Shown here piece by piece: positions 5,832-35,353 of a stretch of 35,933 nucleotides of DNA. The first letter of the stretch is position 1. Each line of letters begins with the position of its first letter. The notes below the pieces were generated by a model that was not told the DNA's origin, did not search any database, and worked only from the letters and a program-made list of their open reading frames with translations. The stretch spans positions 1 to 35,933 of the forward strand of contig WJKC01000005.1 of the NCBI GenBank assembly GCA_014729335.1, given 5' to 3'. This DNA is from an archaeon. GTDB taxonomy: Archaea; Nanobdellota; Nanobdellia; WJKC01. The position numbers were made by a program, and so were the translations under genes.

Positions 5832-6808
5832 CCTTTGTTAAGACCCTGGAGGCAATACTAGCAGCGGTAGTGGCAGTATCGCTTTATAATTTTCTTCAGA
5901 CCTACTCCAGCGGACAGGTTGAAGCCTTTACCAGGCCCCCTGACACCCTGCTTAATGACTTCCTGGATAATATTGACTTAAACAGCGTGGTTAATGAATA
6001 TGACTACCTAACTCTTGACTCATTGTTTAGTAATTTGTTCTATGAAACCATTTATTATTATTTTGAACCGGTTTATCATGAAAAACTACTGGTTAGTGGT
6101 GATAATGGCTCGCCCCGCAATATCAGCTTCATCTATCACTTCCCATTAGGAGTTGATAAGAATTCTGTCAGGGTTTTCTCCAGCAACTATGAGTTAAACA
6201 CAAACGCCTTATTTAACTGGCGCCGGGTGCCGTTAAACTTTAATGAATCAATAAGTGATGAGCACCTGAAGTTCAACATAACAATTGATGAACAAGGGGT
6301 TAATAATCAGTCACTAAGATTCTTTATTAGGGGTAAAGAGTCAGTGCTGTCAATAACTGACTGGGTTGAAGGTCCTTCAACAATTAACGCTTCAATCATC
6401 AGCTACATACCTGAGCTGGCGTCAGGCGAGTTATGCTATGTTTATTACTCAACAGGGTTGTTAAACAATGCCTCTTACCCGTTACTAAGCGAGAGTAAGG
6501 AGGCTCAAGCAACTATTTATAATTCACAGGAAGCCAGGACAGCTGACGTGTTATTCAGTGCTGAGAGCCTTGGCTCTGAAACCAGCACTTACCACGTTAA
6601 GTACTCCTTGTTCAGCGAGAACCCTGATAACTATGCCGAGATAACTAATATTAATAATACGGGCGTGACCCTTGAAATAAAAGAGGATGAAATAAAGGGG
6701 GGTTCAGCGCCTTACAGCGCAACCATTAGGGGAGAGAACGCTGTTAAAAGAGTGCTGCCAATAGACAACGGCTTTGTTGAGTTAACAGTTTATGGAGGCT
6801 ACTCATGA
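5819..6808 (+). CDS. Pilus-locus protein with a prepilin-like N-terminal helix, 329 aa (GTG start)
   Basis: N-terminus MDKLA/FVKTLEAILAAVVAVSLYNFL has an F-x-x-x-L-E-type helix reminiscent of type IV pilin N-termini. It overlaps both neighbours (13 nt upstream, ATGA downstream), consistent with translational coupling. Confidence 0.5.
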   Translation: MDKLAFVKTLEAILAAVVAVSLYNFLQTYSSGQVEAFTRPPDTLLNDFLDNIDLNSVVNEYDYLTLDSLFSNLFYETIYYYFEPVYHEKLLVSGDNGSPRNISFIYHFPLGVDKNSVRVFSSNYELNTNALFNWRRVPLNFNESISDEHLKFNITIDEQGVNNQSLRFFIRGKESVLSITDWVEGPSTINASIISYIPELASGELCYVYYSTGLLNNASYPLLSESKEAQATIYNSQEARTADVLFSAESLGSETSTYHVKYSLFSENPDNYAEITNINNTGVTLEIKEDEIKGGSAPYSATIRGENAVKRVLPIDNGFVELTVYGGYS

Positions 6809-9630
6809 GGCGCAGGGGCCAGTTCTTTATTGCAACAGTGGTTTTAATAGCCTTGACACTGTCTGTCACCACTTTGAACCTGAACGTTCCAAAAGAGTTG
6901 AAGATTAGCCAGTTAATAATCACTGATGAGTCAGTCAGCAACGCCTTGTTTGTTAAGAGGACTCTGGGAGAACTGGGCAATTATTTCAGACAGAACTGGT
7001 TAATGCCTTACACTCATCGGACTGTGATAAGCACTGAGAACAACTTCACCCTGCGTGACTATACAGTAGAAGCTGTTATTAACCTGCCTGATAACGCTTA
7101 CCCTGACGCCCTGATGCTCACTGATGATAGTAACAACCCTGTCCCTTTTAATGTTGAGTGGAGCAACAGGGGTGCTCGTGAAGGAATAATCTATACCCAG
7201 TCAACTGCTAACTCGCTTGATGATAATACTTATTACTTGTACTACACAGTGACCGGCGACGGGGTTGAAGGTTTTAACCAAGAGCAGCAGGTCTTCTACG
7301 GGGAGTCAGGCAACACTATCTGGGTTAGAACCGGTAATTATTACGTTGAGATTGATAAGAACGCCGGCGGGAGCATCAGTTTATTGGAGAACTCTGAGAC
7401 CCAGGACAACCTAGTGCTTTTTGATAACATCATTACCTGTAACTCGGTTGATTATCCTCTAAGCAGCGCTGGCAACCAGGAGGTAACAATCACTGACAAG
7501 GAGTACTACATTAAAGTCGTCTTCACTGGAACCCGGTTTGTTAATGAAACCTATGAGTTAACTCAGTTATTCTTTCCCGATAAGATATTAATCATTGATG
7601 AGATGAGGATAGTATCGCCGTCTGAATGCAACTGGGGTTCAAAACTAGTGGTTGATAAGAATTACCTTATGAACTATGTTGATAGTGAAGGCAACACTTG
7701 GGAGCCGGCGCCGGTCAGGGCTGAGGAGTTCGTGACTAATGGTGAATGGTTTGAGTTATACAGGGGGGCTTATGGTCTGGGGCTGGCAGGAGACAACGCG
7801 TCCCCAATCTATGCTTCATCTGATGCTAGTGAGAACCGGGCTGTAAAGAGAATGTTTAGTTCAGAGACAACAATGTCAGGCACTTATATTAATAATATCA
7901 GTTTAATACCATTAATCAAGATTGGGTTAAACCAGACTAGACAATATAGTAAGACAACCGCCACCACTACTAATCAAGTATTCACTGAGGAGTTGAACGC
8001 TTTATTTGAATTACTTGATAATTACTTCTATGATGTTAACGCCGTGGTCACTCATAACGAGGAGATTGGGGTTTTTGATGAAGGGTATCGTAATATCACT
8101 TCATGGTTCAGCAACTATACAACCAGGAACCTGTTCTTCACCTCAGGACCTAATTCACTGGTGCCGCTTGAAACTGGTTTGTCACTAAAACAAGGGTTTG
8201 ATCCTAACTCAGTTGCTTTTTATAGCAAGGGCTTAATACCTCACCAGGTGAGCACTGATAATTATCACAACTCGTCCTGTTTTAAGTCACTTAATAATTC
8301 TATTGTGAATCACTCGTTATTATTATTCAACCCTGACGGGCAGTCGTTTGACGTCACTATCACTAAACAGGGAGCTAATGATTTAACAACCAGTATTTAC
8401 TACCCTAATGGCTCGCTAATTAATGATTTTACTTTCAACACCAGCCCTTACAGCCTTGGTTTGATTAACCCTTCTCAAGCAGGTTTTTACCAGTTTGATT
8501 TTAATGGTTCTGACACTTTCTCAATTAACTCAACCCTTCCTAAAACCATTGTGCGGACGCCGGTTGGTTTATCAAATAACAGTCCTTTAAAATTAGTTGT
8601 TGATGAAGGAGTTGACTTAATAGAAATAAACATAACTACTTACTCATCTAACACTCAATTATTTGAATTATATAACTCTCTTGGTAACAAGGTTTATAAC
8701 CTCACCCACTCAGCTCCCGGCGCTTCACAGTTTAACGTGTCAGTAACGCCCTGCATTAGCAGCTGTGCTTACGAGTTAAGAATCAGCAACCCCGGACCCT
8801 TCATGTTTAACACCTCGCCGATTAACTACGTCAGCTTCAGTGATGACTACCTGATTAACCCCGAGAGCCCTGAAATCACCCTAGTAAGCGTCAGCAAGCC
8901 AGGAACTAAGTACGTTTACTATGATACTAATACTTCAATTAACAAACCAGTTTATACTAGTGACCTGGTATACTCTGAGAGCGACTTCGAGGTTAATAAC
9001 TCTTTTATCAGCTTTGACCTTGATGACCTTGAATTCTATTACGCGGGGCGTGAATGGCTTGGGTCAAGGGGCTGGACCAGCTGCACAACAAGCTGTGTTA
9101 ACTCATTCAGTGACTTAAGGTTTGTTGAAAAGGGCAGCGAGCGGGTTGTTGTTGAAGCTGATACAAGCGTGGGGGTTAAGTACTTGTTCCACTTCTATCC
9201 TAACACTTCTTACTTTAAAATCACCACTAATGCCAGCTCCAGTCACTCTTTTGGTCCTGGGTGGAGGGTTAATAATACTGACGACCTTTACTATTCATTC
9301 AAGGACTCAGGCTCCAAGTTATTAGGAGACGCTAATAATTACTTGTTTAAACATAATCTTACTGGGCCGCGCTCTTACGTTACTAAGAGTGATGAGTCAT
9401 GCAGTGCTTCAATAATACTTGACACCAATGTCTTGGAAGCTAATAATTCAGTGAAGATTAATGACACCTCAATCATAATAAAAGCTTACAAGCCAGGCAC
9501 TTACGGCTTCCTGGTCAACGAGGGCGCTGCTGATTACCTTGAATCAGTCATCACTAACCAGTATGGCTTAAGAGTCAGGTATGTTTATGACTCAAGCACC
9601 CTGGTCATGAACGGGGACTTATTTACTTAA
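6805..9630 (+). CDS. Very large prepilin-like/adhesin-like secreted protein, 941 aa
   Basis: N-terminus MRRRG/QFFIATVVLIALTLSVTTL is a textbook class III signal pattern (basic, G, Q, hydrophobic run). The remaining ~900 aa are Asn/Thr/Ser/Tyr-rich with many N-x-S/T sequons and no other TM. It is the last gene of the operon. Confidence 0.6.
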   Translation: MRRRGQFFIATVVLIALTLSVTTLNLNVPKELKISQLIITDESVSNALFVKRTLGELGNYFRQNWLMPYTHRTVISTENNFTLRDYTVEAVINLPDNAYPDALMLTDDSNNPVPFNVEWSNRGAREGIIYTQSTANSLDDNTYYLYYTVTGDGVEGFNQEQQVFYGESGNTIWVRTGNYYVEIDKNAGGSISLLENSETQDNLVLFDNIITCNSVDYPLSSAGNQEVTITDKEYYIKVVFTGTRFVNETYELTQLFFPDKILIIDEMRIVSPSECNWGSKLVVDKNYLMNYVDSEGNTWEPAPVRAEEFVTNGEWFELYRGAYGLGLAGDNASPIYASSDASENRAVKRMFSSETTMSGTYINNISLIPLIKIGLNQTRQYSKTTATTTNQVFTEELNALFELLDNYFYDVNAVVTHNEEIGVFDEGYRNITSWFSNYTTRNLFFTSGPNSLVPLETGLSLKQGFDPNSVAFYSKGLIPHQVSTDNYHNSSCFKSLNNSIVNHSLLLFNPDGQSFDVTITKQGANDLTTSIYYPNGSLINDFTFNTSPYSLGLINPSQAGFYQFDFNGSDTFSINSTLPKTIVRTPVGLSNNSPLKLVVDEGVDLIEINITTYSSNTQLFELYNSLGNKVYNLTHSAPGASQFNVSVTPCISSCAYELRISNPGPFMFNTSPINYVSFSDDYLINPESPEITLVSVSKPGTKYVYYDTNTSINKPVYTSDLVYSESDFEVNNSFISFDLDDLEFYYAGREWLGSRGWTSCTTSCVNSFSDLRFVEKGSERVVVEADTSVGVKYLFHFYPNTSYFKITTNASSSHSFGPGWRVNNTDDLYYSFKDSGSKLLGDANNYLFKHNLTGPRSYVTKSDESCSASIILDTNVLEANNSVKINDTSIIIKAYKPGTYGFLVNEGAADYLESVITNQYGLRVRYVYDSSTLVMNGDLFT

Positions 9631-22476: not shown

Positions 22477-24585
22477 TTACTTTTTTAGTTTTCGCTTAAA
22501 AAATAACACAATATTATCAGAGTACAGCCAGCCAAGAAAAGAAAAAATAAGAACTGGGTAGCCAATAACTAAAAAGAAGATAATCAACAAGTAATCAACT
22601 GCTTCATTACTAAAAGATTCAACACCCACCACGTCGCTCATACGGAAAAGAACAGAGTCGCCCGTAACCAGTGACAAATCAGCTGATAAGTCAGCAAAAG
22701 GTATGAAGACCTCGCCGTCAGTGAAGGCGGAGATAATCACTGGGGATGAATTACCAGATGAGTTAACCAGTAACTCATGACTACTGGAGTCAGGGTTAGA
22801 CACGTGAATCACCAAGCCAGAATTATTCAAATCAAAACTAACACTATTAATTGATAAGTTGCCATGAGTAACCTCATCATTAACAATAATAACAAAACTC
22901 TTTGTAAATAACTCATCAGCAACCAACCCACTAATACTCAACGGGTAAGCACCGCTGGAGATATTAGAAGGAAAAACATTCAACAAAGCACTAGCCCCAG
23001 CAGGAGGAACCACCACTTCCTCAGGAACAACAACCCACTCAGGAATACTTGACTGATTAAAAAAGACCGTGACAGGGGTTGAATAATCACTTGAGAAATT
23101 AATAGAAGAGGAAACACTAGTGCCGTTAGACTCAATTAATAACGGGAACTCAATTAATACGTCCCCGACGCTAAAAACAGGGGACTTAGACTGGTTAATA
23201 ATGAATAACTCGCTCTTAACCAATCCCTCATAACGAGCAATCACTAAAGCGTAACCGGTTAACACCTCATTAAAAGAGAAACCCCCCTGAGGGCTGGAAG
23301 TAACAGACTCCACTAACTCGCCGTCAATATATAATTCCACACTAGTAGCAAGGGGTGTGCCGTCACTAAGACCAACACTGCCGCTAATTAACGAGTCATT
23401 AACACTTGACTCCAACACTAAGTCATTAACAACTAATACGCCGTCAACAAACCCCTGATTACCAGAGTCATCAGAAACCCTAATCGTGAAATCGTAATCA
23501 CCAATAGTTAAATTAACATCAAGGAATAAGCGGTAAAGACCGCCCTCCTCAACAACCCTTAAGATACCACCAGGCAAGCCGGATAAACTAAACGAGGGTT
23601 TATCAACCACGTCATCAACACTAACAATTATAGAAGCATTCTCACCAGACAATAAAGAGGAGTCAACAACTTCAATCATTAATTCATCAGAAACAATAAC
23701 TGAAGTGTTAAAATAACCAGTATTACCACTATCCTCAGCAGCCAGGTTAATCAACCACTCACCAGGCTCATTAAACAATAAGTCCTTGCAGAAAACACTG
23801 CCGCAAGGATTTAACTGAACATTAAAAGACTCAGACTCAGGGGGGGTGACAGTCGCGTTAATAACATTACCTGCAAAAAACTCATTATTAGCATAACCAG
23901 CACTAACCCTTAAAGAATGAGAACCCATCCTGATAAAACGATCACTTTCAAGCCTTAACACCAAATTAGTTGGCAGCACGTTAAAAAACTCGACATCACT
24001 AATAACATTAAATAAATCACTTGAATGATTAACCCATACGCGCCAAGAAGATAATAAAGCGTCAACTGGTAACTCAAAAGAGCCAGAGTAGCCACCGTTA
24101 TCTTTATCCAAGTAAGCAGTGAAAGAATTAACCGAGTCATTAAGCATGAAGGGAATATTATCAATACCAGCCGAGCCATTAACAACTTCAACCCCTGCTC
24201 TAACACTAATAGTATCACCCCGGTTAAAAGAAGAATTATCAATTATCAAATCAAGAACCAAGAAGTTCTTCAGGTAAAGCAAGGCGTTGCTCTTATCAAG
24301 AATTGAGTTAGCAATCAAGTAAGCACTAGAGCCATTAACCCCTGATAAGTCAATAGAACTATTCCAGAAACCATTACTATCAGGCGGCACAGAACCGCAG
24401 AAGGTTTCAACACCAGCCGCAGGGTCATAAACTGACAGGGCAATATCACCCCCTTCATCAGTCACGCCGACAACATTAATAACCCCCCGGCTGATAATCG
24501 CTCCATTCTTAGGTGAAGAAATAATAACCTTAGAAAAAGCCGGGCTTAATAATAAGAATAATAAAACCAGAACTAGCCTGCGCAT
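22477..24585 (-). CDS. Secreted, C-terminally membrane-anchored surface protein (S-layer/adhesin-like), 702 aa
   Basis: Sec-type signal MRRLVLVLLFLLLSPAFS. The long body is Ser/Val/Asn/Asp-rich and beta-rich with many N-x-S/T sequons. The C-terminal TM is YLLIIFFLVIGYPVLIFSFLGWLY, followed by a basic tail KRKLKK. A TATA-like ttttaaa lies about 27 nt upstream. Confidence 0.7.
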   Translation of the reverse strand: MRRLVLVLLFLLLSPAFSKVIISSPKNGAIISRGVINVVGVTDEGGDIALSVYDPAAGVETFCGSVPPDSNGFWNSSIDLSGVNGSSAYLIANSILDKSNALLYLKNFLVLDLIIDNSSFNRGDTISVRAGVEVVNGSAGIDNIPFMLNDSVNSFTAYLDKDNGGYSGSFELPVDALLSSWRVWVNHSSDLFNVISDVEFFNVLPTNLVLRLESDRFIRMGSHSLRVSAGYANNEFFAGNVINATVTPPESESFNVQLNPCGSVFCKDLLFNEPGEWLINLAAEDSGNTGYFNTSVIVSDELMIEVVDSSLLSGENASIIVSVDDVVDKPSFSLSGLPGGILRVVEEGGLYRLFLDVNLTIGDYDFTIRVSDDSGNQGFVDGVLVVNDLVLESSVNDSLISGSVGLSDGTPLATSVELYIDGELVESVTSSPQGGFSFNEVLTGYALVIARYEGLVKSELFIINQSKSPVFSVGDVLIEFPLLIESNGTSVSSSINFSSDYSTPVTVFFNQSSIPEWVVVPEEVVVPPAGASALLNVFPSNISSGAYPLSISGLVADELFTKSFVIIVNDEVTHGNLSINSVSFDLNNSGLVIHVSNPDSSSHELLVNSSGNSSPVIISAFTDGEVFIPFADLSADLSLVTGDSVLFRMSDVVGVESFSNEAVDYLLIIFFLVIGYPVLIFSFLGWLYSDNIVLFFKRKLKK

Positions 24586-24959: not shown

Positions 24960-26015
24960 ATGGATGAATTATTATTAAGGATGATGGGCCCGTTACTAAG
25001 AGCCATATACTTAATCCCGTTCGCCAGTTTCTTCATAATTAATAAGAGGAAAAAAGAGTTTGTCTACGAAACCGCTTATGACTCAATACTAGTGGGGATA
25101 ATCTTCGGCATACTGCACATATCATCATCATTCATAGTTGAAGGATTAATATTCACCGGGTCACTGCCAATAAACAACCCTAATGACTTATCAACCTACC
25201 AATTAATACCTAACGTATTCTTATTCATCTCATCAGGCTTGTTATTAATGGCATTGTACAAGGAGAGTAAGAAGATAATATCAAAATCAGACATAATCAA
25301 CATCACAATATACATATTACTAATATCCAGTGTAACTGCTTTCACTAATGAGAACCTATTATTCAGGTTAAACATAATATTATACTTCGTAGCCATCTAC
25401 TTCCTAATAAACACCCTGGTATTAACAGGTTTTTTCCTAGAGAAATACCAGCAAGACTATTACTTCGCAATCATAGGAGCAGTTATACTAACACTTGACC
25501 CGCTAATCTACCTGACAATGTATAATACTGTCTTCAACACCTTCCCGTCTCTTGACATGTTCTATTATTACAGGTACGCCCGCTACCTGGTAGGCTCAAT
25601 AGCCATCAGCTTCTTATTAATCCCGCACCTAAGATTCGCGCTGAAGTTGAAAAAGAAGAAAATAGTTGGTTACAGTAAAGAGGATACACTGGTTGAGAAC
25701 ACTATTAAACGATTATTCAACGAGACTCAGAAAATCTACGGCAGAGCAACCGGCAAGATATTCAAGAAAAGCTGCAACTTATACAAAAAAGAATTTAATA
25801 AAAAGATAGAGTGTCATAAACCATTTGAGTTCGAGAACTTATCCTACAGGGAGCAGAAAGAGTACCTTAAACTAATACTAAACATTTATGAAGAACTGCT
25901 CAGTGATAAATTAACCACTGCCCTACTAAAATCAATAAAAGACAATAAAAATGATGGGTTAATAGCTGAATGCGCGCCAAAAAAGGACATCAAGGATATA
26001 ATACTAAAAGTTTAA
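24960..26015 (+). CDS. Polytopic membrane protein with a Lys-rich cytoplasmic C-terminal domain (hypothetical)
   Basis: About 7 hydrophobic helices in the first ~225 aa, then a ~125-aa charged soluble tail. No recognisable catalytic motif. Confidence 0.6.
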   Translation: MDELLLRMMGPLLRAIYLIPFASFFIINKRKKEFVYETAYDSILVGIIFGILHISSSFIVEGLIFTGSLPINNPNDLSTYQLIPNVFLFISSGLLLMALYKESKKIISKSDIINITIYILLISSVTAFTNENLLFRLNIILYFVAIYFLINTLVLTGFFLEKYQQDYYFAIIGAVILTLDPLIYLTMYNTVFNTFPSLDMFYYYRYARYLVGSIAISFLLIPHLRFALKLKKKKIVGYSKEDTLVENTIKRLFNETQKIYGRATGKIFKKSCNLYKKEFNKKIECHKPFEFENLSYREQKEYLKLILNIYEELLSDKLTTALLKSIKDNKNDGLIAECAPKKDIKDIILKV

Positions 26016-26665
26016 TAACTATAATCAAGAGCCACTCTAAGAACCTCTCTAAGATTACCCCATATGCTATTAATATTACTCCTTCTTAGAACTCCTTTAA
26101 CATTCATGTAAGTCCATCTTAAACCAGTCTGAGCTAAACTAACTGCTTTCTTCTTATTAAACAAGAAAAGAAAAGCAGCCATTAAGCACGCGCCCACTCC
26201 TGGAAGCGGCGCCTTAAATTTATCCCAGAAACCAATACTAGGATTTAAATCCTTAATCAAGTCCTCTCCATAAACAACTTTTCCTTCGCGCTTGATGTTG
26301 CTCCAGATAACCCCTTTAGGGATTAATAATTTAGAGAGCAACCGGCTGTCGCAGAAATTAAACCTCTTCTTACGCCAGCCCCCCTCATCAAATAAGAATA
26401 TATTCTTCTTAAAACCAATCAGGTTAAGGAAACGAGCAATCCTTAACTCAAGCCAGGTGTCACCTTCAACTGACAAGTCATCCTCTAAATCGTTAAGCTC
26501 TTTAACAAGCTCTTTAGTCTTGTCCTTAACAACCACTATCAGGTCAACATCACTGTCACCATTATAGTCGCCACGAGCATAGCTGCCAAAAACCATTATT
26601 GAAACAAGATTCTTTTTACCAACAACTTTCTTAACCTGTTTTGATAAAGTCTTCAGATTAACCAT
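26012..26665 (-). CDS. Nucleotidyltransferase-domain protein (Pol-beta superfamily, minimal NTase-like N-terminus)
   Basis: Signature is IMVFGSYARGDYNGDSDVDLIVVV (G-S...D-x-D). An uncharacterised ~150-aa C-terminal part contains one hydrophobic stretch. Confidence 0.7.
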   Translation of the reverse strand: MVNLKTLSKQVKKVVGKKNLVSIMVFGSYARGDYNGDSDVDLIVVVKDKTKELVKELNDLEDDLSVEGDTWLELRIARFLNLIGFKKNIFLFDEGGWRKKRFNFCDSRLLSKLLIPKGVIWSNIKREGKVVYGEDLIKDLNPSIGFWDKFKAPLPGVGACLMAAFLFLFNKKKAVSLAQTGLRWTYMNVKGVLRRSNINSIWGNLREVLRVALDYSY

Positions 26666-29014: not shown

Positions 29015-29030
29015 AAAGAAATGCTTAAAA
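29015..29030 (+). promoter_or_regulatory. Shared tRNA promoter motif aaagaaatgcttaaaa (tRNA-Ile locus)
   Basis: Identical 16-mer to 30799-30814 upstream of tRNA-Glu and contains a TATA-like cttaaaa. It ends 28 nt before the pseudo 5' end gagcctg at 29058, not before the real tRNA 5' end. Confidence 0.5.
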
Positions 29031-29056: not shown

Positions 29057-29086
29057 TGAGCCTGGCAGCGTAAAGCAAAAGGCTCA
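29057..29086 (+). repeat. Acceptor-stem-mimicking leader of tRNA-Ile (copies of both acceptor strands around a 16-nt loop)
   Basis: tgagcctg (29057-29064) repeats the tRNA 5' end tgagcctg (29092-29099). aggctca (29080-29086) repeats the 3' acceptor strand plus discriminator (29183-29189). gagcct/aggctc can form a 6-bp helix. Confidence 0.8.
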
Positions 29087-29092
29087 TGAAAT

Positions 29093-29189
29093 GAGCCTGT
29101 AGCTCAGCTTGGTTAGAGCGCTGGTCTTATATGACCGTGTTCCAATCTAGGGAAACCAGAGGTCCCGAGTTCAAATCTCGGCAGGCTCA
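29093..29189 (+). tRNA. tRNA-Ile (anticodon TAT) with a 22-nt intron at the canonical 37/38 position, no encoded CCA
   Basis: Acceptor gagcctg/caggctc plus a. D stem gctc/gagc. Anticodon stem ctggt (29121-29125)/accag (29155-29159). Loop is c-t-TAT-a-[intron 29132-29153 tgaccgtgttccaatctaggga]-a. T stem ccgag/ctcgg with loop ttcaaat. Confidence 0.8.
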
Positions 29190-29215
29190 TAAAGAAAGGA
29201 TTGAGCTTGCTGATT

Positions 29216-29246
29216 TAACACTTTAGTGTTATTATCGGCAGGCTTA
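29216..29246 (+). repeat. tRNA-Ile trailer module: hairpin plus a copy of the tRNA 3' end
   Basis: Hairpin taacac-ttta-gtgtta (29216-29231), then tta, then tcggcaggct (29235-29244). This is identical to tRNA positions 29178-29187 (T-stem 3' strand plus acceptor 3' strand). Extended to the discriminator, 11 of 12 nt match. Confidence 0.8.
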
Positions 29247-30798: not shown

Positions 30799-30814
30799 AA
30801 AGAAATGCTTAAAA
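30799..30814 (+). promoter_or_regulatory. Shared tRNA promoter motif aaagaaatgcttaaaa (tRNA-Glu locus)
   Basis: Identical 16-mer to 29015-29030. It ends 29 nt before tRNA-Glu position +1. Confidence 0.5.
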
Positions 30815-30842: not shown

Positions 30843-30917
30843 GCTCCTGTAGTCTAGCCTGGTCAAGGACACTGGCCTTTCAAGCCAGTAACCCGGGTTC
30901 AAATCCCGGCAGGAGCA
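30843..30917 (+). tRNA. tRNA-Glu (anticodon TTC), no intron, no encoded CCA
   Basis: Acceptor gctcctg/caggagc plus a. D stem gtct/ggac. Anticodon stem ctggc/gccag with loop ctTTCaa. 4-nt variable loop. T stem ccggg/cccgg with loop ttcaaat. Confidence 0.9.
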
Positions 30918-30948
30918 GCTTACATTCACTTCACTGGTTGCGACTGAC

Positions 30949-30988
30949 GGTTCAAAAATCAATAGATTTTTGTTACCGGCAGGAGCAG
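30949..30988 (+). repeat. tRNA-Glu trailer module: GGTTCA-hairpin-TGTTA plus a 13-nt copy of the tRNA 3' end
   Basis: ggtt + hairpin caaaaatc-aata-gatttttg (30953-30972) + tta + ccggcaggagcag (30976-30988). The last block is identical to 30906-30918 (T-stem 3' strand, acceptor 3' strand, discriminator, +1). Confidence 0.85.
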
Positions 30989-31162
30989 ACCCTCTTTCTT
31001 TTAGAAAAAGAAAAAGTCTTCTAAGCCAAAAAGAAAACCACTACGCTCGAAATATACACCCAAACTGCAAAATGACGACTCTACACGCAGTGTAGTTGTC
31101 AGCAGGAGTAAAGCGAGCCAGTGGCATTAAGTTTTTAAAGCAGCCTATTAATTAAGAGATTA

Positions 31163-32774: not shown

Positions 32775-32787
32775 ATAATTAAGGAGA

Positions 32788-32826
32788 GGTTCAGAAATGC
32801 CTGATTTCTGTTAATCTCTCCCTACA
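32788..32826 (+). repeat. tRNA-Leu trailer module: GGTTCA-hairpin-TGTTA plus an 11-nt copy of the tRNA 3' end
   Basis: ggtt + hairpin cagaaat-gcctg-atttctg (32792-32810) + ttaat + ctctccctaca (32816-32826). The last block is identical to 32764-32774 (T-stem 3' strand, acceptor 3' strand, discriminator). Confidence 0.85.
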
Positions 32827-33121: not shown

Positions 33122-33478
33122 ATGCAATCATTAAAGGATTTCAAAAAAGACAATGAAAAAAACATGCTAAGACTATTGTTAATAAAATGGTTATGTGATG
33201 ATAATAAATGGGCAGCTAATTACATGCACGTGCTGAGCAACTTAATAGGCAGTGACTTCACAACAAAGGACCTGCCGTTCAAAAGCAGCCGCTCATACGA
33301 ACTAGCTAAAGAATGGACTGGTAAAGGATTAATCAGGGTTATTGACTACACAAGCAAGGCAAGGAAATACGCTTTCAACACCACCCTGTTCGCCAAGTCA
33401 ATAGAGAACAAAGAAGTAAGCAGGGAAGTAAAAGATGATTTGTTAAACAAACTAGATGAATTACTGCTTCCAGACTAA
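33122..33478 (+). CDS. Hypothetical small protein, possibly winged-helix DNA-binding
   Basis: 118 aa. The segment SRSYELAKEWTGKGLIRVIDYTSKARKYAFN looks like a recognition helix plus wing. This is weak pattern-level evidence only. Confidence 0.4.
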   Translation: MQSLKDFKKDNEKNMLRLLLIKWLCDDNKWAANYMHVLSNLIGSDFTTKDLPFKSSRSYELAKEWTGKGLIRVIDYTSKARKYAFNTTLFAKSIENKEVSREVKDDLLNKLDELLLPD

Positions 33479-35353
33479 GTAAGATATTGCTAACAATGAT
33501 GCGAGAGTAACTAACCATCCTAAGATAAAATAAGAAGTATCAAAGTACAAATCAAACTCCTCTAACCCGTCCAAGCCGCTGACCATTATAAACCAGTCAT
33601 CCTGGCTAACATGTAATTCCTGACCATTACTAAAAGCCCTCCACCAAGGGTGATAATTAAGCCTCAAGGTCACGTTATTAACAGACTCTCTCAGGATAAC
33701 CTTCAGGCTAACAGGGTTAATAATTCTTAAGAAGTAAGGGACTGGTTCAACCCTTGACGAGACAGCCTTGAAGTCAATGTCAATACCGCGGTATTTAAAG
33801 GTCATGGAGTCACTGGCTTCCTTACTTAAGTAAACCCATTTACTAACCCCTGACCGGTTAAGAAATTCAAAGAATAATTCTTCACCCTCAAAAGTAGGCA
33901 CCTCTCTTAACAGGGTGGTATGGCCAATATTATTAACAGTCTTAGCACCAGTTAAGTAGACAAGGCTGTTCTTAAACACTAACCGTTCATCAAACATTAC
34001 AACATCAGAGGACTTGATAAAGGAAACATCATTAAATTGAACACACCAAGTGCGCGGGTAATTCAAGGAGTTAGGGATAAACAAGGTTAAAGGGATGATG
34101 CTGATAACAACCGCGATAAAAACAAGCAGGTAATCCTTAGTGAACTTATTAAAAAATAACCTTTTCTTTGAGAAAAAGTAGATGAAAAAACCGGCAAGCA
34201 CTAATACTGAAAAAACCGGCAGGAACGCCTCATTAGGAAGAAAGTTAAGGATAAATATTAATAATGGCACTTCAAACCCATACTTAACCCTTGCAAAAAC
34301 AAAAGCTGAGAAAAGAAACAATGACATCTGAAAAAAGAAAGTAACCCTGTCAAAAGGAACGTTAACATCCAACAAGCTTATGGTTGAACATAGAAAGGTA
34401 ACAATCACTAAAGAAATAATTAATGACAAGAACAACCACTTGCCCTTAAAAGACTTGCTTTTACGAGCATAAAATAACGCAATAATAAACGTAGTTAAGA
34501 AGTAAGGCCCATAATAATAATCACTAGCAGCTGTTAAGTCAATACTTTGAATCTCAGGAATCATTAATGAGAATAAAAAAGTGTTAAGCATTTTCTCAGA
34601 ATTAAAAACAAGTGCTGAACCACTCCCGGGCAGCAATATTGACTGGAAAAATAAAGGCACGTAATAAAAAGAAGTAATTAAAGCACTAAGCAAGAAAAAC
34701 AGCCAGAGCCTAGACTTCTTTTTAATAAACAAGTAAAAAGTTACAAAAACAAAAAGTATTATTAACATGAAAAAATGAGTTGCCATTGTCAACGCAGAGA
34801 AAATAATAAACAATGAAAGATTAAGCTTATCAATCTTCTTATCAAAAACGCACTTCTGAAGATAGATTATTGTCAGGAAAAACAATGGTACGGCTGCAAT
34901 AGTATGATAACTGCCATGGACAGTGAATTGCTGGTTCATAAAACCGGATGCAATAAATAAACAACTAAAAAGGAACGAGCCGATAAGGCTGCCTTTATTA
35001 CGCCTTAGAATAATAAACAAGAAGAAGCCTGCCAAAGCGTATAATAGATTATACATTGTGAAAAAAGCAGTCCTCGCGTCAAGAAATAAACGTAGGACCA
35101 GTGGTAAAAGAAAAGGCACAGGCGAGTAAGAGAACTGGTAATAACCAAGTGAGAAATAATTAAAAGTAACCGGAAATATAGTACCGTGATTAATCAATTG
35201 TTCCTGAAATCCCAGTGAGTTAATGAAGTGGTTCTCCAAGTCACCATGAGTTGTCAAGGTGCAGTCAGGCTGGAACCATTTATGAGTGATAAAAAAACTG
35301 AAAATCAGGAGAGAAACAAGCACCAGAACAAGAGTTAATTTTGAATCTTTCAT
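33461..35353 (-). CDS. Large polytopic membrane protein with a C-terminal soluble domain (possible GT-C-type glycosyltransferase)
   Basis: 630 aa with about 13 or more TM helices over ~430 aa, followed by a ~190-aa non-membrane domain and a final TM. This architecture is typical of ArnT/PMT/AglB-like GT-C enzymes, but no WWDYG-type motif was recognised. The gene itself is well supported; the function call is weak. Confidence 0.5.
   Translation of the reverse strand: MKDSKLTLVLVLVSLLIFSFFITHKWFQPDCTLTTHGDLENHFINSLGFQEQLINHGTIFPVTFNYFSLGYYQFSYSPVPFLLPLVLRLFLDARTAFFTMYNLLYALAGFFLFIILRRNKGSLIGSFLFSCLFIASGFMNQQFTVHGSYHTIAAVPLFFLTIIYLQKCVFDKKIDKLNLSLFIIFSALTMATHFFMLIILFVFVTFYLFIKKKSRLWLFFLLSALITSFYYVPLFFQSILLPGSGSALVFNSEKMLNTFLFSLMIPEIQSIDLTAASDYYYGPYFLTTFIIALFYARKSKSFKGKWLFLSLIISLVIVTFLCSTISLLDVNVPFDRVTFFFQMSLFLFSAFVFARVKYGFEVPLLIFILNFLPNEAFLPVFSVLVLAGFFIYFFSKKRLFFNKFTKDYLLVFIAVVISIIPLTLFIPNSLNYPRTWCVQFNDVSFIKSSDVVMFDERLVFKNSLVYLTGAKTVNNIGHTTLLREVPTFEGEELFFEFLNRSGVSKWVYLSKEASDSMTFKYRGIDIDFKAVSSRVEPVPYFLRIINPVSLKVILRESVNNVTLRLNYHPWWRAFSNGQELHVSQDDWFIMVSGLDGLEEFDLYFDTSYFILGWLVTLASLLAISYLVWKQ

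What the first reader, a model, noticed from the sequence alone, without database searches (positions are those of the whole stretch)
30906..31110. tRNA-Glu trailer: T-loop-like GGTTCA hairpin plus a 13-nt exact copy of the tRNA 3' end, and a second degenerate module
ccggcaggagcag (30906-30918; T-stem 3' strand, acceptor 3' strand, discriminator, +1) recurs exactly at 30976-30988. It is preceded by ggtt + an 8-bp perfect hairpin caaaaatc-aata-gatttttg (30953-30972) + tta. About 110 nt further on, a second hairpin ctacac-gca-gtgtag (31081-31095) + ttgt is followed by cagcaggagta (31100-31110), a 9/11 match to the same tRNA end. This may be an older copy of the module. The first tRNA copy folds perfectly on its own, so these are not needed as exons. 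An exact 13-mer at this distance is essentially impossible by chance.
Basis: seen in the sequence. Interest (0 to 1): 0.62.

Follow-up and report, generated by a model that had tools for sequence, protein, structure and literature searches.

The report
Hairpin copies of tRNA ends
Just after a glutamate tRNA gene of a tiny DPANN archaeon lies a non-coding hairpin built from a direct and an inverted copy of the tRNA's own last 12 bases; the same module follows tRNA genes in many related archaea, which points to an undescribed way in which tRNA gene ends are copied, reshuffled and kept.

Summary
It pairs with the second copy, so the module is a hairpin replica of the tRNA's acceptor/T-stem helix with a variable cap (z = -6.4). 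tRNA-Ile and tRNA-Leu in the window carry the same kind of module. So do tRNA-Glu, Gln and His genes in Woese-, Pace- and other Nanoarchaeia: 18 of 210 tRNAs have a copy of 10 nt or more downstream, none upstream. The stem is conserved and covaries across genomes. Caps are alike within a genome and unlike between genomes. Unit number differs between close relatives, copies near the tRNA are exact, and distal copies decay. The tRNA does not need the module. I found no integrase, virus match, Rfam family or RNA data. Best reading (about 0.4): a recombination-made, selection-kept hairpin module at tRNA 3' ends that works like a folded att site. Main rival (0.3): a co-transcribed RNA mimic of the tRNA top half. 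Plain decaying scar fits only the third copy.

The parts
30843..30917 (+). tRNA-Glu(UUC) gene. It is complete and has no encoded CCA.
   Evidence: ARAGORN; Rfam RF00005 at 70.7 bits.
30906..30918 (+). R1: the T-stem 3' strand, acceptor 3' strand, discriminator and the +1 base (ccggcaggagcag).
30919..30939 (+). Spacer cttacattcacttcactggtt. Its 3' part (ttcactggtt) is conserved in relative L122.
30940..30950 (+). invR: GCGACTGACGG, an imperfect inverted copy of R. The perfect complement would be GCTCCTGCCGG. The mismatches at positions 3-4 and 8 are shared with other genomes.
   Evidence: CM hit at 51.3 bits
30951..30975 (+). Cap: T-loop-like TTCAAAA, the 8-bp hairpin (30953-30972) and gtta. 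It is 21/27 identical to the cap of the Leu module and unrelated to the cap at the same site in L122.
30976..30988 (+). R2: an exact 13-nt direct copy of R1. It pairs with invR, and the helix runs 4 bp past the discriminator.
   Evidence: z = -6.4
30993..31015 (+). T-rich/A-rich palindrome ctttcttttagaaaaagaaaaag. This is the first long oligo-T after the module and a possible end of the tRNA transcript (inference only).
31081..31110 (+). Third, degenerate unit: 6-bp hairpin, ttgt, then cagcaggagta (9/11). It lies within 31045-31123, which a strain about 97% identical lacks.
31125..31139 (+). cattaagtttttaaa: a promoter-like box for the next gene, conserved in L122. It marks the old distal edge of the trailer.
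29203..29244 (+). tRNA-Ile module: invR GAGCTTGCTGA (29203-13), cap (29214-34) and R2 TCGGCAGGCT (29235-44). It is absent from relatives L123, L124 and L254.
   Evidence: z = -9.0
32783..32826 (+). tRNA-Leu module: invR GGAGAG (32783-88), cap (32789-32815) and R2 CTCTCCCTACA (32816-26).

Best explanation
**What it is (shown).** The trailer holds one intact and one decayed copy of a non-coding 'end-copy module' of about 70 nt. This module is common behind tRNA genes in class Nanoarchaeia (DPANN). One unit has four parts:
- a spacer;
- an imperfect inverted copy of the tRNA's last 11 nt;
- a variable cap hairpin;
- an exact direct copy of the last 12 nt plus 1.

The two copies pair, so the unit is a hairpin replica of the acceptor/T-stem helix of its own tRNA. 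The tRNA is complete without it.

**How it most likely works (inferred).** Units are made, multiplied, lost and homogenised at the DNA level by recombination at or between the repeated 3'-end copies. New units lie next to the tRNA. Old units are pushed outward and decay. Selection keeps the hairpin arms matched to the tRNA end. This is the behaviour expected if the folded hairpin mimics the duplex target site of a recombinase acting in trans, as integron attC sites and the CTX phage attP hairpin do. On this reading it is a cargo-less, self-propagating or domesticated att-like cassette. It is not a part of the tRNA.
For: - **Strictly one-sided:** 18 of 210 tRNAs have a copy downstream and none upstream. 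By record title, 7 of 36 Woese-/Pace-/Nanoarchaeota loci have one, against 0 of about 75 other archaea.
- **Unit number differs between close relatives.** L122 has units A and B. The window has B plus a relic. L123 has one unit. L124 has a hairpin plus A and B. L254 and L255 have none.
- **The Ile module is an insertion.** It occurs only in the window. The old trailer (taatttatttaatt) now follows the distal copy, which is the layout expected from an insertion with duplication of the end.
- **Copies near the tRNA are exact and distal copies are degenerate.** This holds for the window, L122, L064 and L176. In L176 the distal unit still carries an older tRNA-Glu end.
- **Units are duplicated and shuffled.** L080 has two identical tandem units and a chimeric pseudo-tRNA. 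L057 has a shuffled array.
- **A near-identical strain lacks the third unit**.
- **The hairpin is under constraint.** The same layout, 3 bp / A.G / 3 bp / A.G / 4 bp / loop / cap, appears in 15 of 15 loci. Covariation is 0.204 against 0.107 in shuffles, 0 of 500 reaching the observed value, and slid controls stay at or below 0.11.
- **The arms follow the tRNA.** L124's copies read CCCGGTAGGAGCA like its tRNA. In L256 the arm bases opposite tRNA positions 5-7 read CCA and pair with TGG, as in its tRNA's acceptor stem.
- **Caps are alike within a genome and unlike between genomes**. This pattern is also reported for archaeal attC sites (PMC9668308).
- **The helices run past the discriminator into non-tRNA sequence**. 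That fits a DNA palindrome better than a tRNA mimic.
Against: - No recombinase was seen in the window or next to modules in seven other loci.
- No site holds a larger insert between the copies.
- The module is not found on IMG/VR viral contigs.
- A cassette that hops between different tRNAs would not bring a matching inverted arm. The way new tRNA-specific arms arise is unexplained.
- Conservation of the stem and its tracking of the tRNA are equally expected for a functional RNA.
- Tracking rests on two relatives (L124, L256), and there are counter-examples (L155, L176).
- No experiment or read-level evidence of excision or insertion exists.
Confidence: 0.4

Rival explanations
1. **Functional RNA.** The trailer is co-transcribed with the tRNA. 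Its hairpin acts as a mimic of the tRNA's top half (acceptor plus T stem). Possible roles are a processing signal or decoy for tRNA enzymes, or a device that controls pre-tRNA folding by alternative pairing (invR with R1, acceptor 5' strand with R2).
For: - The stem spans 12 positions, which equals acceptor 7 plus T-stem 5.
- Structure is kept by covariation while the sequence of the caps and of hairpin 1 changes freely.
- The stem sequence equals that of the cognate tRNA and follows its changes in L124 and L256.
- Module A is about 85% identical between L122 and L124, more than the promoter.
- The + strand folds better than the - strand in 15 of 15 loci.
- No strong oligo-T precedes the module in the window.
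- The full precursor can pair its 5' acceptor strand with a trailer copy.
- Precedents, from my own knowledge: plant mitochondrial t-elements, mascRNA, and the tRNA-like element beside haloarchaeal 5S rRNA.
Against: - There are no RNA data.
- It is absent from most related genomes and from close relatives (L254, L255), so it is dispensable.
- Multiple, shuffled and decaying units are not expected of an RNA gene.
- The helix continues past the discriminator in the Glu and Ile modules, which is unlike RNase P or tRNase Z substrates.
- There is no T-loop in the Woese-type units.
- Many loci have T-runs directly after the tRNA.
- A.C mismatches (4) are about as frequent as G.U pairs (5) in the stems.
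- Rfam finds nothing.
Confidence: 0.3
2. **Neutral scars.** These are leftover att copies from tRNA-targeting integrative elements (viruses or plasmids) that have since been deleted. They have no present role.
For: Direct repeats of the tRNA 3' end behind an intact tRNA are the classical footprint of integration (PMC9897764; PMC3293823). Distal copies decay, and the third unit is polymorphic. Partial T-arm copies with inserts (module A) resemble displaced att halves.
Against: - The repeats are only 10-16 nt long and 40-110 nt apart.
- No integrase fragment or element DNA lies between them.
- Repeated independent deletions would not leave the same architecture.
- The inverted arm, with the same two mismatches, is shared between lineages whose TopoVI-B is only about 50% identical. 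Neutral DNA would not keep that.
- There are compensatory changes.
Confidence: 0.12
3. **Mutational by-product.** Replication or repair template switching at the quasi-palindromic ends of highly transcribed tRNA genes creates a direct and an inverted duplication of the terminal strand. The products persist because local hairpins are harmless.
For: - The same pattern occurs at the 5' end of tRNA-Ile: TGAGCCTG, 15 nt, AGGCTCAT, GAA, then the tRNA. The promoter is spaced for the upstream copy, and the arrangement is shared with L123.
- The Ile palindrome runs into the old trailer, with C-to-T differences on one arm.
- In L071 and L124-Leu the repeat extends beyond the tRNA end.
- The +1 base is duplicated as well.
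- No recombinase is needed.
Against: It does not explain the long-term conservation of the arm with identical mismatches. It also does not explain caps that are shared within a genome, or the same roughly 50-nt insert in three different tRNA copies of one MAG.
Confidence: 0.13

Closest known systems
att direct repeats of tRNA-targeting integrative elements (SSV1, pNOB8-type, PYG1)
   Same: A copy of the tRNA 3' part lies downstream of an intact tRNA. It occurs only on the 3' side. Copies can carry mismatches or inserts, and serial events stack copies (PMC9897764, PMC3293823).
   Different: The repeat is 10-16 nt, not about 44 nt. The copies are 40-110 nt apart, not kilobases. There is no integrase. 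An inverted copy and a cap hairpin lie between the repeats, and the architecture is conserved across a class.
Integron attC sites and cassette arrays, including archaeal integrons (PMC9668308); CTX phage attP(+) hairpin (own knowledge)
   Same: It is an imperfect palindrome whose outer arms are a core and an inverse core. The mismatches are conserved and the centre varies in length and sequence. [quoted passage not shown] Arrays have the core repeated at every junction and the newest unit next to the primary site. The hairpin stem reproduces the duplex target.
   Different: No IntI or Xer link is shown and no ORF cargo is present. The core is 11-12 nt and taken from a tRNA end, and it differs from tRNA to tRNA. 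Membership is not claimed; the comparison is an analogy of design.
tRNA-like processing elements (plant mitochondrial t-elements, mascRNA RF01684, tRNA-like element at haloarchaeal 5S rRNA; own knowledge)
   Same: An acceptor/T-arm-like helix stands next to a gene and is followed by an A at the discriminator place.
   Different: There are two conserved mismatches and no T-loop in most units. The helix runs past the discriminator in the window. There is no RNA evidence and no Rfam hit on the module.
Non-canonical T-loop (59/60) tRNA introns, and intron gain through mobile-element recombination (PMC3239211, PMC3293823)
   Same: Module A, and the window's units, read T-stem 5' strand, T-loop, insert, T-stem 3' strand, acceptor 3' strand. 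This is the same layout as the T-loop-interrupted tRNA-Leu of relative L255. A deletion between the two T-loop copies would turn an intact tRNA plus module into such a gene.
   Different: Here the interrupted copy is redundant and lies behind an intact tRNA. No bulge-helix-bulge was seen at its borders.

Membership tests
att scar of a tRNA-targeting integrative element | Direct repeat identical to the tRNA 3' part, downstream of an intact tRNA | tested here: met
   13/13 at 30906-18 and 30976-88; 18 of 210 tRNAs downstream against 0 upstream.
att scar of a tRNA-targeting integrative element | Integrase gene (whole or split) at or between the repeats | tested here: not met
   No recombinase Pfam hit in the window ORFs or in 20 ORFs beside modules in seven loci. 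The only transposase-type hit is one IS240-type DDE gene, in L080.
att scar of a tRNA-targeting integrative element | Element-sized DNA between the repeats | tested here: not met
   57 nt lie between the copies. No further copy occurs within the 5-20 kb held for 16 loci.
integron attC / cassette array | Imperfect palindrome with conserved core and inverse core, conserved unpaired bases and a variable centre | tested here: met
   Alignment A2, alifold and pair counts; folds.
integron attC / cassette array | Integron integrase with attI and promoter beside the array; cassettes with ORFs | tested here: not met
   No integrase found. Units are 40-110 nt long and have no ORF.
integron attC / cassette array | [quoted passage not shown] | tested here: inconclusive
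   Glu and Leu caps are 21/27 identical (0 of 2000 shuffles). Three tRNAs of MAG PPR_0041 share one insert. The cap differs at the orthologous site of L122. Only a few genomes were available.
integron attC / cassette array | Recombined as folded single-stranded DNA by a tyrosine recombinase | not testable with these tools
   This needs recombination assays or junction reads.
tRNA-like processing element (t-element / mascRNA type) | Acceptor plus T-arm helix with T-loop, ending at an unpaired discriminator | tested here: inconclusive
   The stem has 12 positions with 2 mismatches. There is no T-loop in the Woese-type units. The helix goes 4-5 bp beyond the discriminator in the window's Glu and Ile units.
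tRNA-like processing element (t-element / mascRNA type) | Transcribed and cut by RNase P or tRNase Z | not testable with these tools
   No RNA run holds the trailer.
tRNA exon / BHB intron | The tRNA is incomplete without the downstream copy; bulge-helix-bulge at the borders | tested here: not met
   The tRNA scores 70.7 bits and folds by itself. No 3-nt/4-bp/3-nt motif appears in the folds (by inspection).
known RNA family (Rfam 15) | Match to a curated covariance model | tested here: not met
   Only the tRNAs match. Nothing matches on the trailer up to E = 5.

The most novel reading that the evidence does not exclude
tRNA 3' ends in Nanoarchaeia serve as anchor sites for integron-like arrays of cargo-less hairpin cassettes. 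These cassettes would be folded att sites whose stem mimics the target duplex and is re-templated from the resident tRNA. The same units would be the raw material from which T-loop introns arise: a deletion between the tRNA's T-loop and the unit's T-loop copy gives a gene like the tRNA-Leu of L255. On this reading, one recombination system would link att-site duplication, tRNA-end mimicry and non-canonical intron gain.
Probability: 0.2. Interest if true: 0.85.

Novelty: new variant of a known kind. Interest (0 to 1): 0.62.

Why it matters
Short copies of tRNA ends behind tRNA genes are normally read as dead footprints of integrated viruses or plasmids. Here the footprint has an internal design: a direct copy, an inverted copy and a cap. 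Selection keeps this design across a whole class of ultrasmall archaea, it follows changes of its tRNA, and it multiplies and decays on short time scales.

If it is a folded recombination site, it is a new and very small kind of mobile or domesticated DNA. It would also offer a concrete route to the puzzling T-loop introns and disrupted tRNA genes of DPANN archaea. If it is an RNA, it is an undescribed family of tRNA top-half mimics.

Either way it affects tRNA annotation in MAGs, and it gives a marker for recombination activity in organisms that cannot be grown.

Tried and rejected
- **Chance:** rejected.
- **Assembly artefact:** rejected, because the same architecture appears in independent assemblies from JGI, ENA, NCBI and Logan.
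- **Exon or alternative 3' half, or BHB intron:** the tRNA is complete and no BHB was seen.
- **Box C/D, H/ACA or K-turn readings of the hairpins:** considered from the sequence. The CUGA lies inside the paired arm, there is no 3-nt bulge, and the pocket is too small. Dropped.
- **CRISPR-like array:** the 'spacers' recur and there are no cas genes.
- **Viral attP:** two IMG/VR scans gave only chance hits in collagen-like repeats and unrelated genes.
- **Metagenome scan for the module:** the pattern was too loose. 111 of 120 rows were chance hits in high-GC bacteria and nine were real.
- **RNA evidence:** no run holds the window's trailer, and two metatranscriptomes cover only tRNA exons of other organisms.
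- **Rfam at E up to 5:** nothing on the trailer.
- **Bacterial-type promoter and terminator scan:** uninformative for an archaeon.
- **Extra relatives through weaker protein homologues (L253, L257-L259):** no tRNA-Glu upstream.
- **Genome-wide repeat (MITE/REP):** the cap occurs only at the Glu and Leu trailers in the window, and the CM finds the module only behind tRNA-Glu in 615 kb of DPANN DNA.
- **MAFFT of whole trailers:** unreliable because units are gained and lost, so comparisons were made by eye.

Full report
**Observation.** The window carries four tRNA genes on the + strand: Asn, Ile(UAU, with intron), Glu(UUC) at 30843-30917, and Leu(AAG). The 13-mer ccggcaggagcag stands at 30906-18 and again at 30976-88. 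Its first 12 bases (ccggcaggagca) occur exactly only at these two places in the window. The 13-mer covers the T-stem 3' strand, the acceptor 3' strand, the discriminator and the +1 base. The 8-bp hairpin (30953-72), the second hairpin (31081-95) and the 9/11 copy (31100-10) are all as described.

This is the reverse complement of the copy with three changes. It pairs with 30976-86, so 30936-30992 folds into one long imperfect hairpin (-25.1 kcal/mol, z = -6.4). The third unit is weak on its own. A 2-mismatch match has about a 2% chance in this interval, and its fold has z = -1.7.

**The same thing at other tRNAs.**
- tRNA-Ile is followed by GAGCTTGCTGA, a cap and TCGGCAGGCT. This forms a 17-bp hairpin with z = -9.0.
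- tRNA-Leu is followed by GGAGAG, a cap and CTCTCCCTACA (z = -4.5).
- The Glu and Leu caps are 21/27 identical (0 of 2000 shuffles) and occur nowhere else in the window.
- tRNA-Asn has no module.

**Host.** The window is chromosomal: it carries MCM, RFC, topoisomerase VI, a RIO kinase, pilus-type ATPase genes and sugar and methyl transferases. The best named TopoVI-B relatives are 'Candidatus Nanoarchaeia archaeon' at 75-80% identity. Woesearchaeota proteins are about 50% identical. The host is therefore a DPANN archaeon.

**Distribution.** I scanned one genome per species for the tRNA-Glu 3' end, which gave 120 archaeal loci. A second copy of the end lies 65-185 nt downstream in nine of them (L026, L035, L052, L057, L064, L071, L076, L080, L112). 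By record title, seven of these nine are among the 36 Woese-, Pace- or Nanoarchaeota-labelled loci and two are unnamed 'archaeon' MAGs. None of the roughly 75 Micrarchaeota, marine group II, Thermoplasmatota and other loci has one. Over all held sequences, 18 of 210 tRNAs (Glu, Ile, Leu, Gln, His) have a copy of at least 10 nt downstream, and none has one upstream. A metagenome scan added nine more loci, each directly behind a tRNA-Glu.

**Architecture.** In 15 of 15 loci the trailer folds the same way:
- a variable first hairpin;
- then a stem of 3 bp / A.G / 3 bp / A.G / 4 bp, which is 12 positions, the length of acceptor plus T stem;
- then a 3x3 loop;
- then a variable cap.

In an alignment of 16 units, the arms are nearly invariant and the cap and the pair that closes the stem covary: U-A 6 against C-G 5, and G-C 7 against A-U 7. 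The covariation score is 0.204, against 0.107 in shuffles (0 of 500 reach it) and at most 0.11 in slid controls. A covariance model finds the module at 47-66 bits on the + strand and only behind tRNA-Glu, in 615 kb of DPANN DNA. G.U and A.C cells are about equally common, so the strand or molecule that folds is not settled.

**Close relatives.** I reached these through the neighbouring hexapeptide-transferase gene. Percentages are amino-acid identity of that protein to the window's.
- **L122 (80%)** has two units. Unit A reads T-stem 5' strand, T-loop, a 42-nt insert and the 3' end copy. Unit B has the same ttcactggttGCGACTGACGG (21/21) but an unrelated cap.
- **L123 (61%)** has one unit.
- **L124 (50%)** has units A and B. 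Its tRNA acceptor changed to GCTCCTA/TAGGAGC, and both trailer copies read CCCGGTAGGAGCA as well.
- **L256 (49%)** has the same cap as L124 with one compensatory pair change. Its tRNA reads GCTCCCA/TGGGAGC, and its module arms read ..CCA.. and ..TG(A)GAGC.
- **L254 and L255** have no module. In L254 the tRNAs abut the next start codon.
- The Ile module is absent from L123, L124 and L254. In the window the old trailer now follows the distal copy.
- A sediment contig about 97% identical joins 31044 to 31124, so that strain lacks the third unit.

Elsewhere the picture is one of turnover. L080 has two identical tandem units at tRNA-Gln and a chimeric pseudo-tRNA. L057 has a shuffled array. L176 has two fresh copies of its present tRNA end followed by an old unit with a different tRNA-Glu end. 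Three tRNAs of one MAG (Gln, Glu, His) share the same roughly 50-nt insert at T-loop position 60/61 of their downstream copies.

**What this shows.**
- The units are dispensable for the tRNA. They are gained and lost quickly, laid down next to the tRNA, and they decay distally.
- The hairpin arms are nevertheless kept, with the same two mismatches, between lineages that are only about 50% identical in TopoVI-B. In two relatives they also follow the tRNA's own changes.
- A plain decaying scar therefore fits only the third unit.

**What was not found.** There is no integrase or other tyrosine or serine recombinase in the window or beside modules in seven loci; the only transposase-type hit is one IS240-type DDE gene in L080. 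No larger insert lies between the copies. There is no copy on IMG/VR viruses, no Rfam family and no RNA data.

**Interpretation.** I favour a DNA-level origin and upkeep (0.4). Recombination at and between the repeated ends makes, multiplies, deletes and homogenises the units. The hairpin is the selected part because it mimics the duplex target, as attC sites and the CTX attP hairpin do. [quoted passage not shown]

The helices run past the discriminator. A mirror-image duplication sits at the 5' end of tRNA-Ile, with the promoter spaced for the outer copy. Both facts fit DNA better than a tRNA mimic.

The main rival (0.3) is a co-transcribed RNA mimic of the tRNA top half. It explains the conservation and the tracking equally well, but it does not explain the arrays, the decay or the patchy presence. 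Recombinase-free template switching (0.13) and neutral integration scars (0.12) explain parts of the picture only.

**A possible link to introns.** The T-loop-interrupted tRNA-Leu of L255 has the layout that a deletion between a tRNA's T-loop and a unit's T-loop copy would produce. This suggests a route to non-canonical introns. It is in line with the mobile-element model of PMC3293823, but it was not tested here.

Noticed in passing
window 29057-29099: The 5' side of tRNA-Ile reads TGAGCCTG, 15 nt, AGGCTCAT, GAA, then the tRNA start (ATGAGCCTG). This is a direct repeat of the acceptor 5' strand with an inverted copy between, the mirror image of the 3' modules. The TTAAAA box (29025) lies 34 nt before the upstream copy, which is the same spacing as the Glu promoter to its tRNA. 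The arrangement is shared with L123 and absent in L124.
   Followed up: partly
window 29015-29030 and 30799-30814: An identical 16-mer AAAGAAATGCTTAAAA (BRE/TATA-like) lies upstream of tRNA-Ile and of tRNA-Glu.
   Followed up: no
L255 7379-7535: The tRNA-Leu of a relative (GCA_030615175.1) has an insert of about 48 nt inside its T-loop and only one 3' end. ARAGORN misses it and Rfam scores it below threshold. It is a likely true T-loop intron.
   Followed up: partly
L254 12-114 and 1671-1750: In relative GCA_053940465.1, tRNA-Ile and tRNA-Glu end 2-3 nt before the ATG of the next gene. This suggests tRNA-mRNA co-transcripts in which tRNA 3' processing would create a leaderless mRNA.
   Followed up: no
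L080 3439-6481: tRNA-Gln is followed by two identical 81-nt units. A chimeric pseudo-tRNA (the Glu 5' 25 nt joined to the Gln 3' 48 nt) sits behind a duplicated Glu promoter and carries the same unit. An IS240-type DDE transposase gene lies about 390 nt beyond the Glu module.
   Followed up: partly
L026, L035, L057, L076, L080, L112, L231 (tRNA-Glu CUC): Woese- and Pacearchaeota tRNA-Glu(CUC) genes carry a canonical-position intron of about 110 nt with conserved blocks (gtcgttgagac.., ggagaacggcg). Default ARAGORN misses these genes.
   Followed up: no
L163, L057, L052, L035, just after the last 3'-end copy: A conserved downstream motif with three imperfect repeats, GTTCACCGCAGCGAGG .. CCGCAGCAAAGCGAGGAG .. 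CCGCAGCAAGAGTGAATCA. A similar stretch follows a tRNA-Arg in L052. Its nature is unknown.
   Followed up: no
window 31045-31123: A contig from another sediment metagenome (about 97% identical over 30977-31044) joins 31044 to 31124. The 79 nt that hold the third, degenerate unit are therefore an indel between strains.
   Followed up: partly
window 26012-26665 (- strand): A 217-aa Pol-beta-type nucleotidyltransferase (NTP_transf_2) is kept in synteny with the tRNA cluster in L124 and L253. Its role is unknown.
   Followed up: no
window 6805-9630, 22477-24585, 33461-35353: Three large ORFs (941, 702 and 630 aa) have no Pfam match.
   Followed up: no
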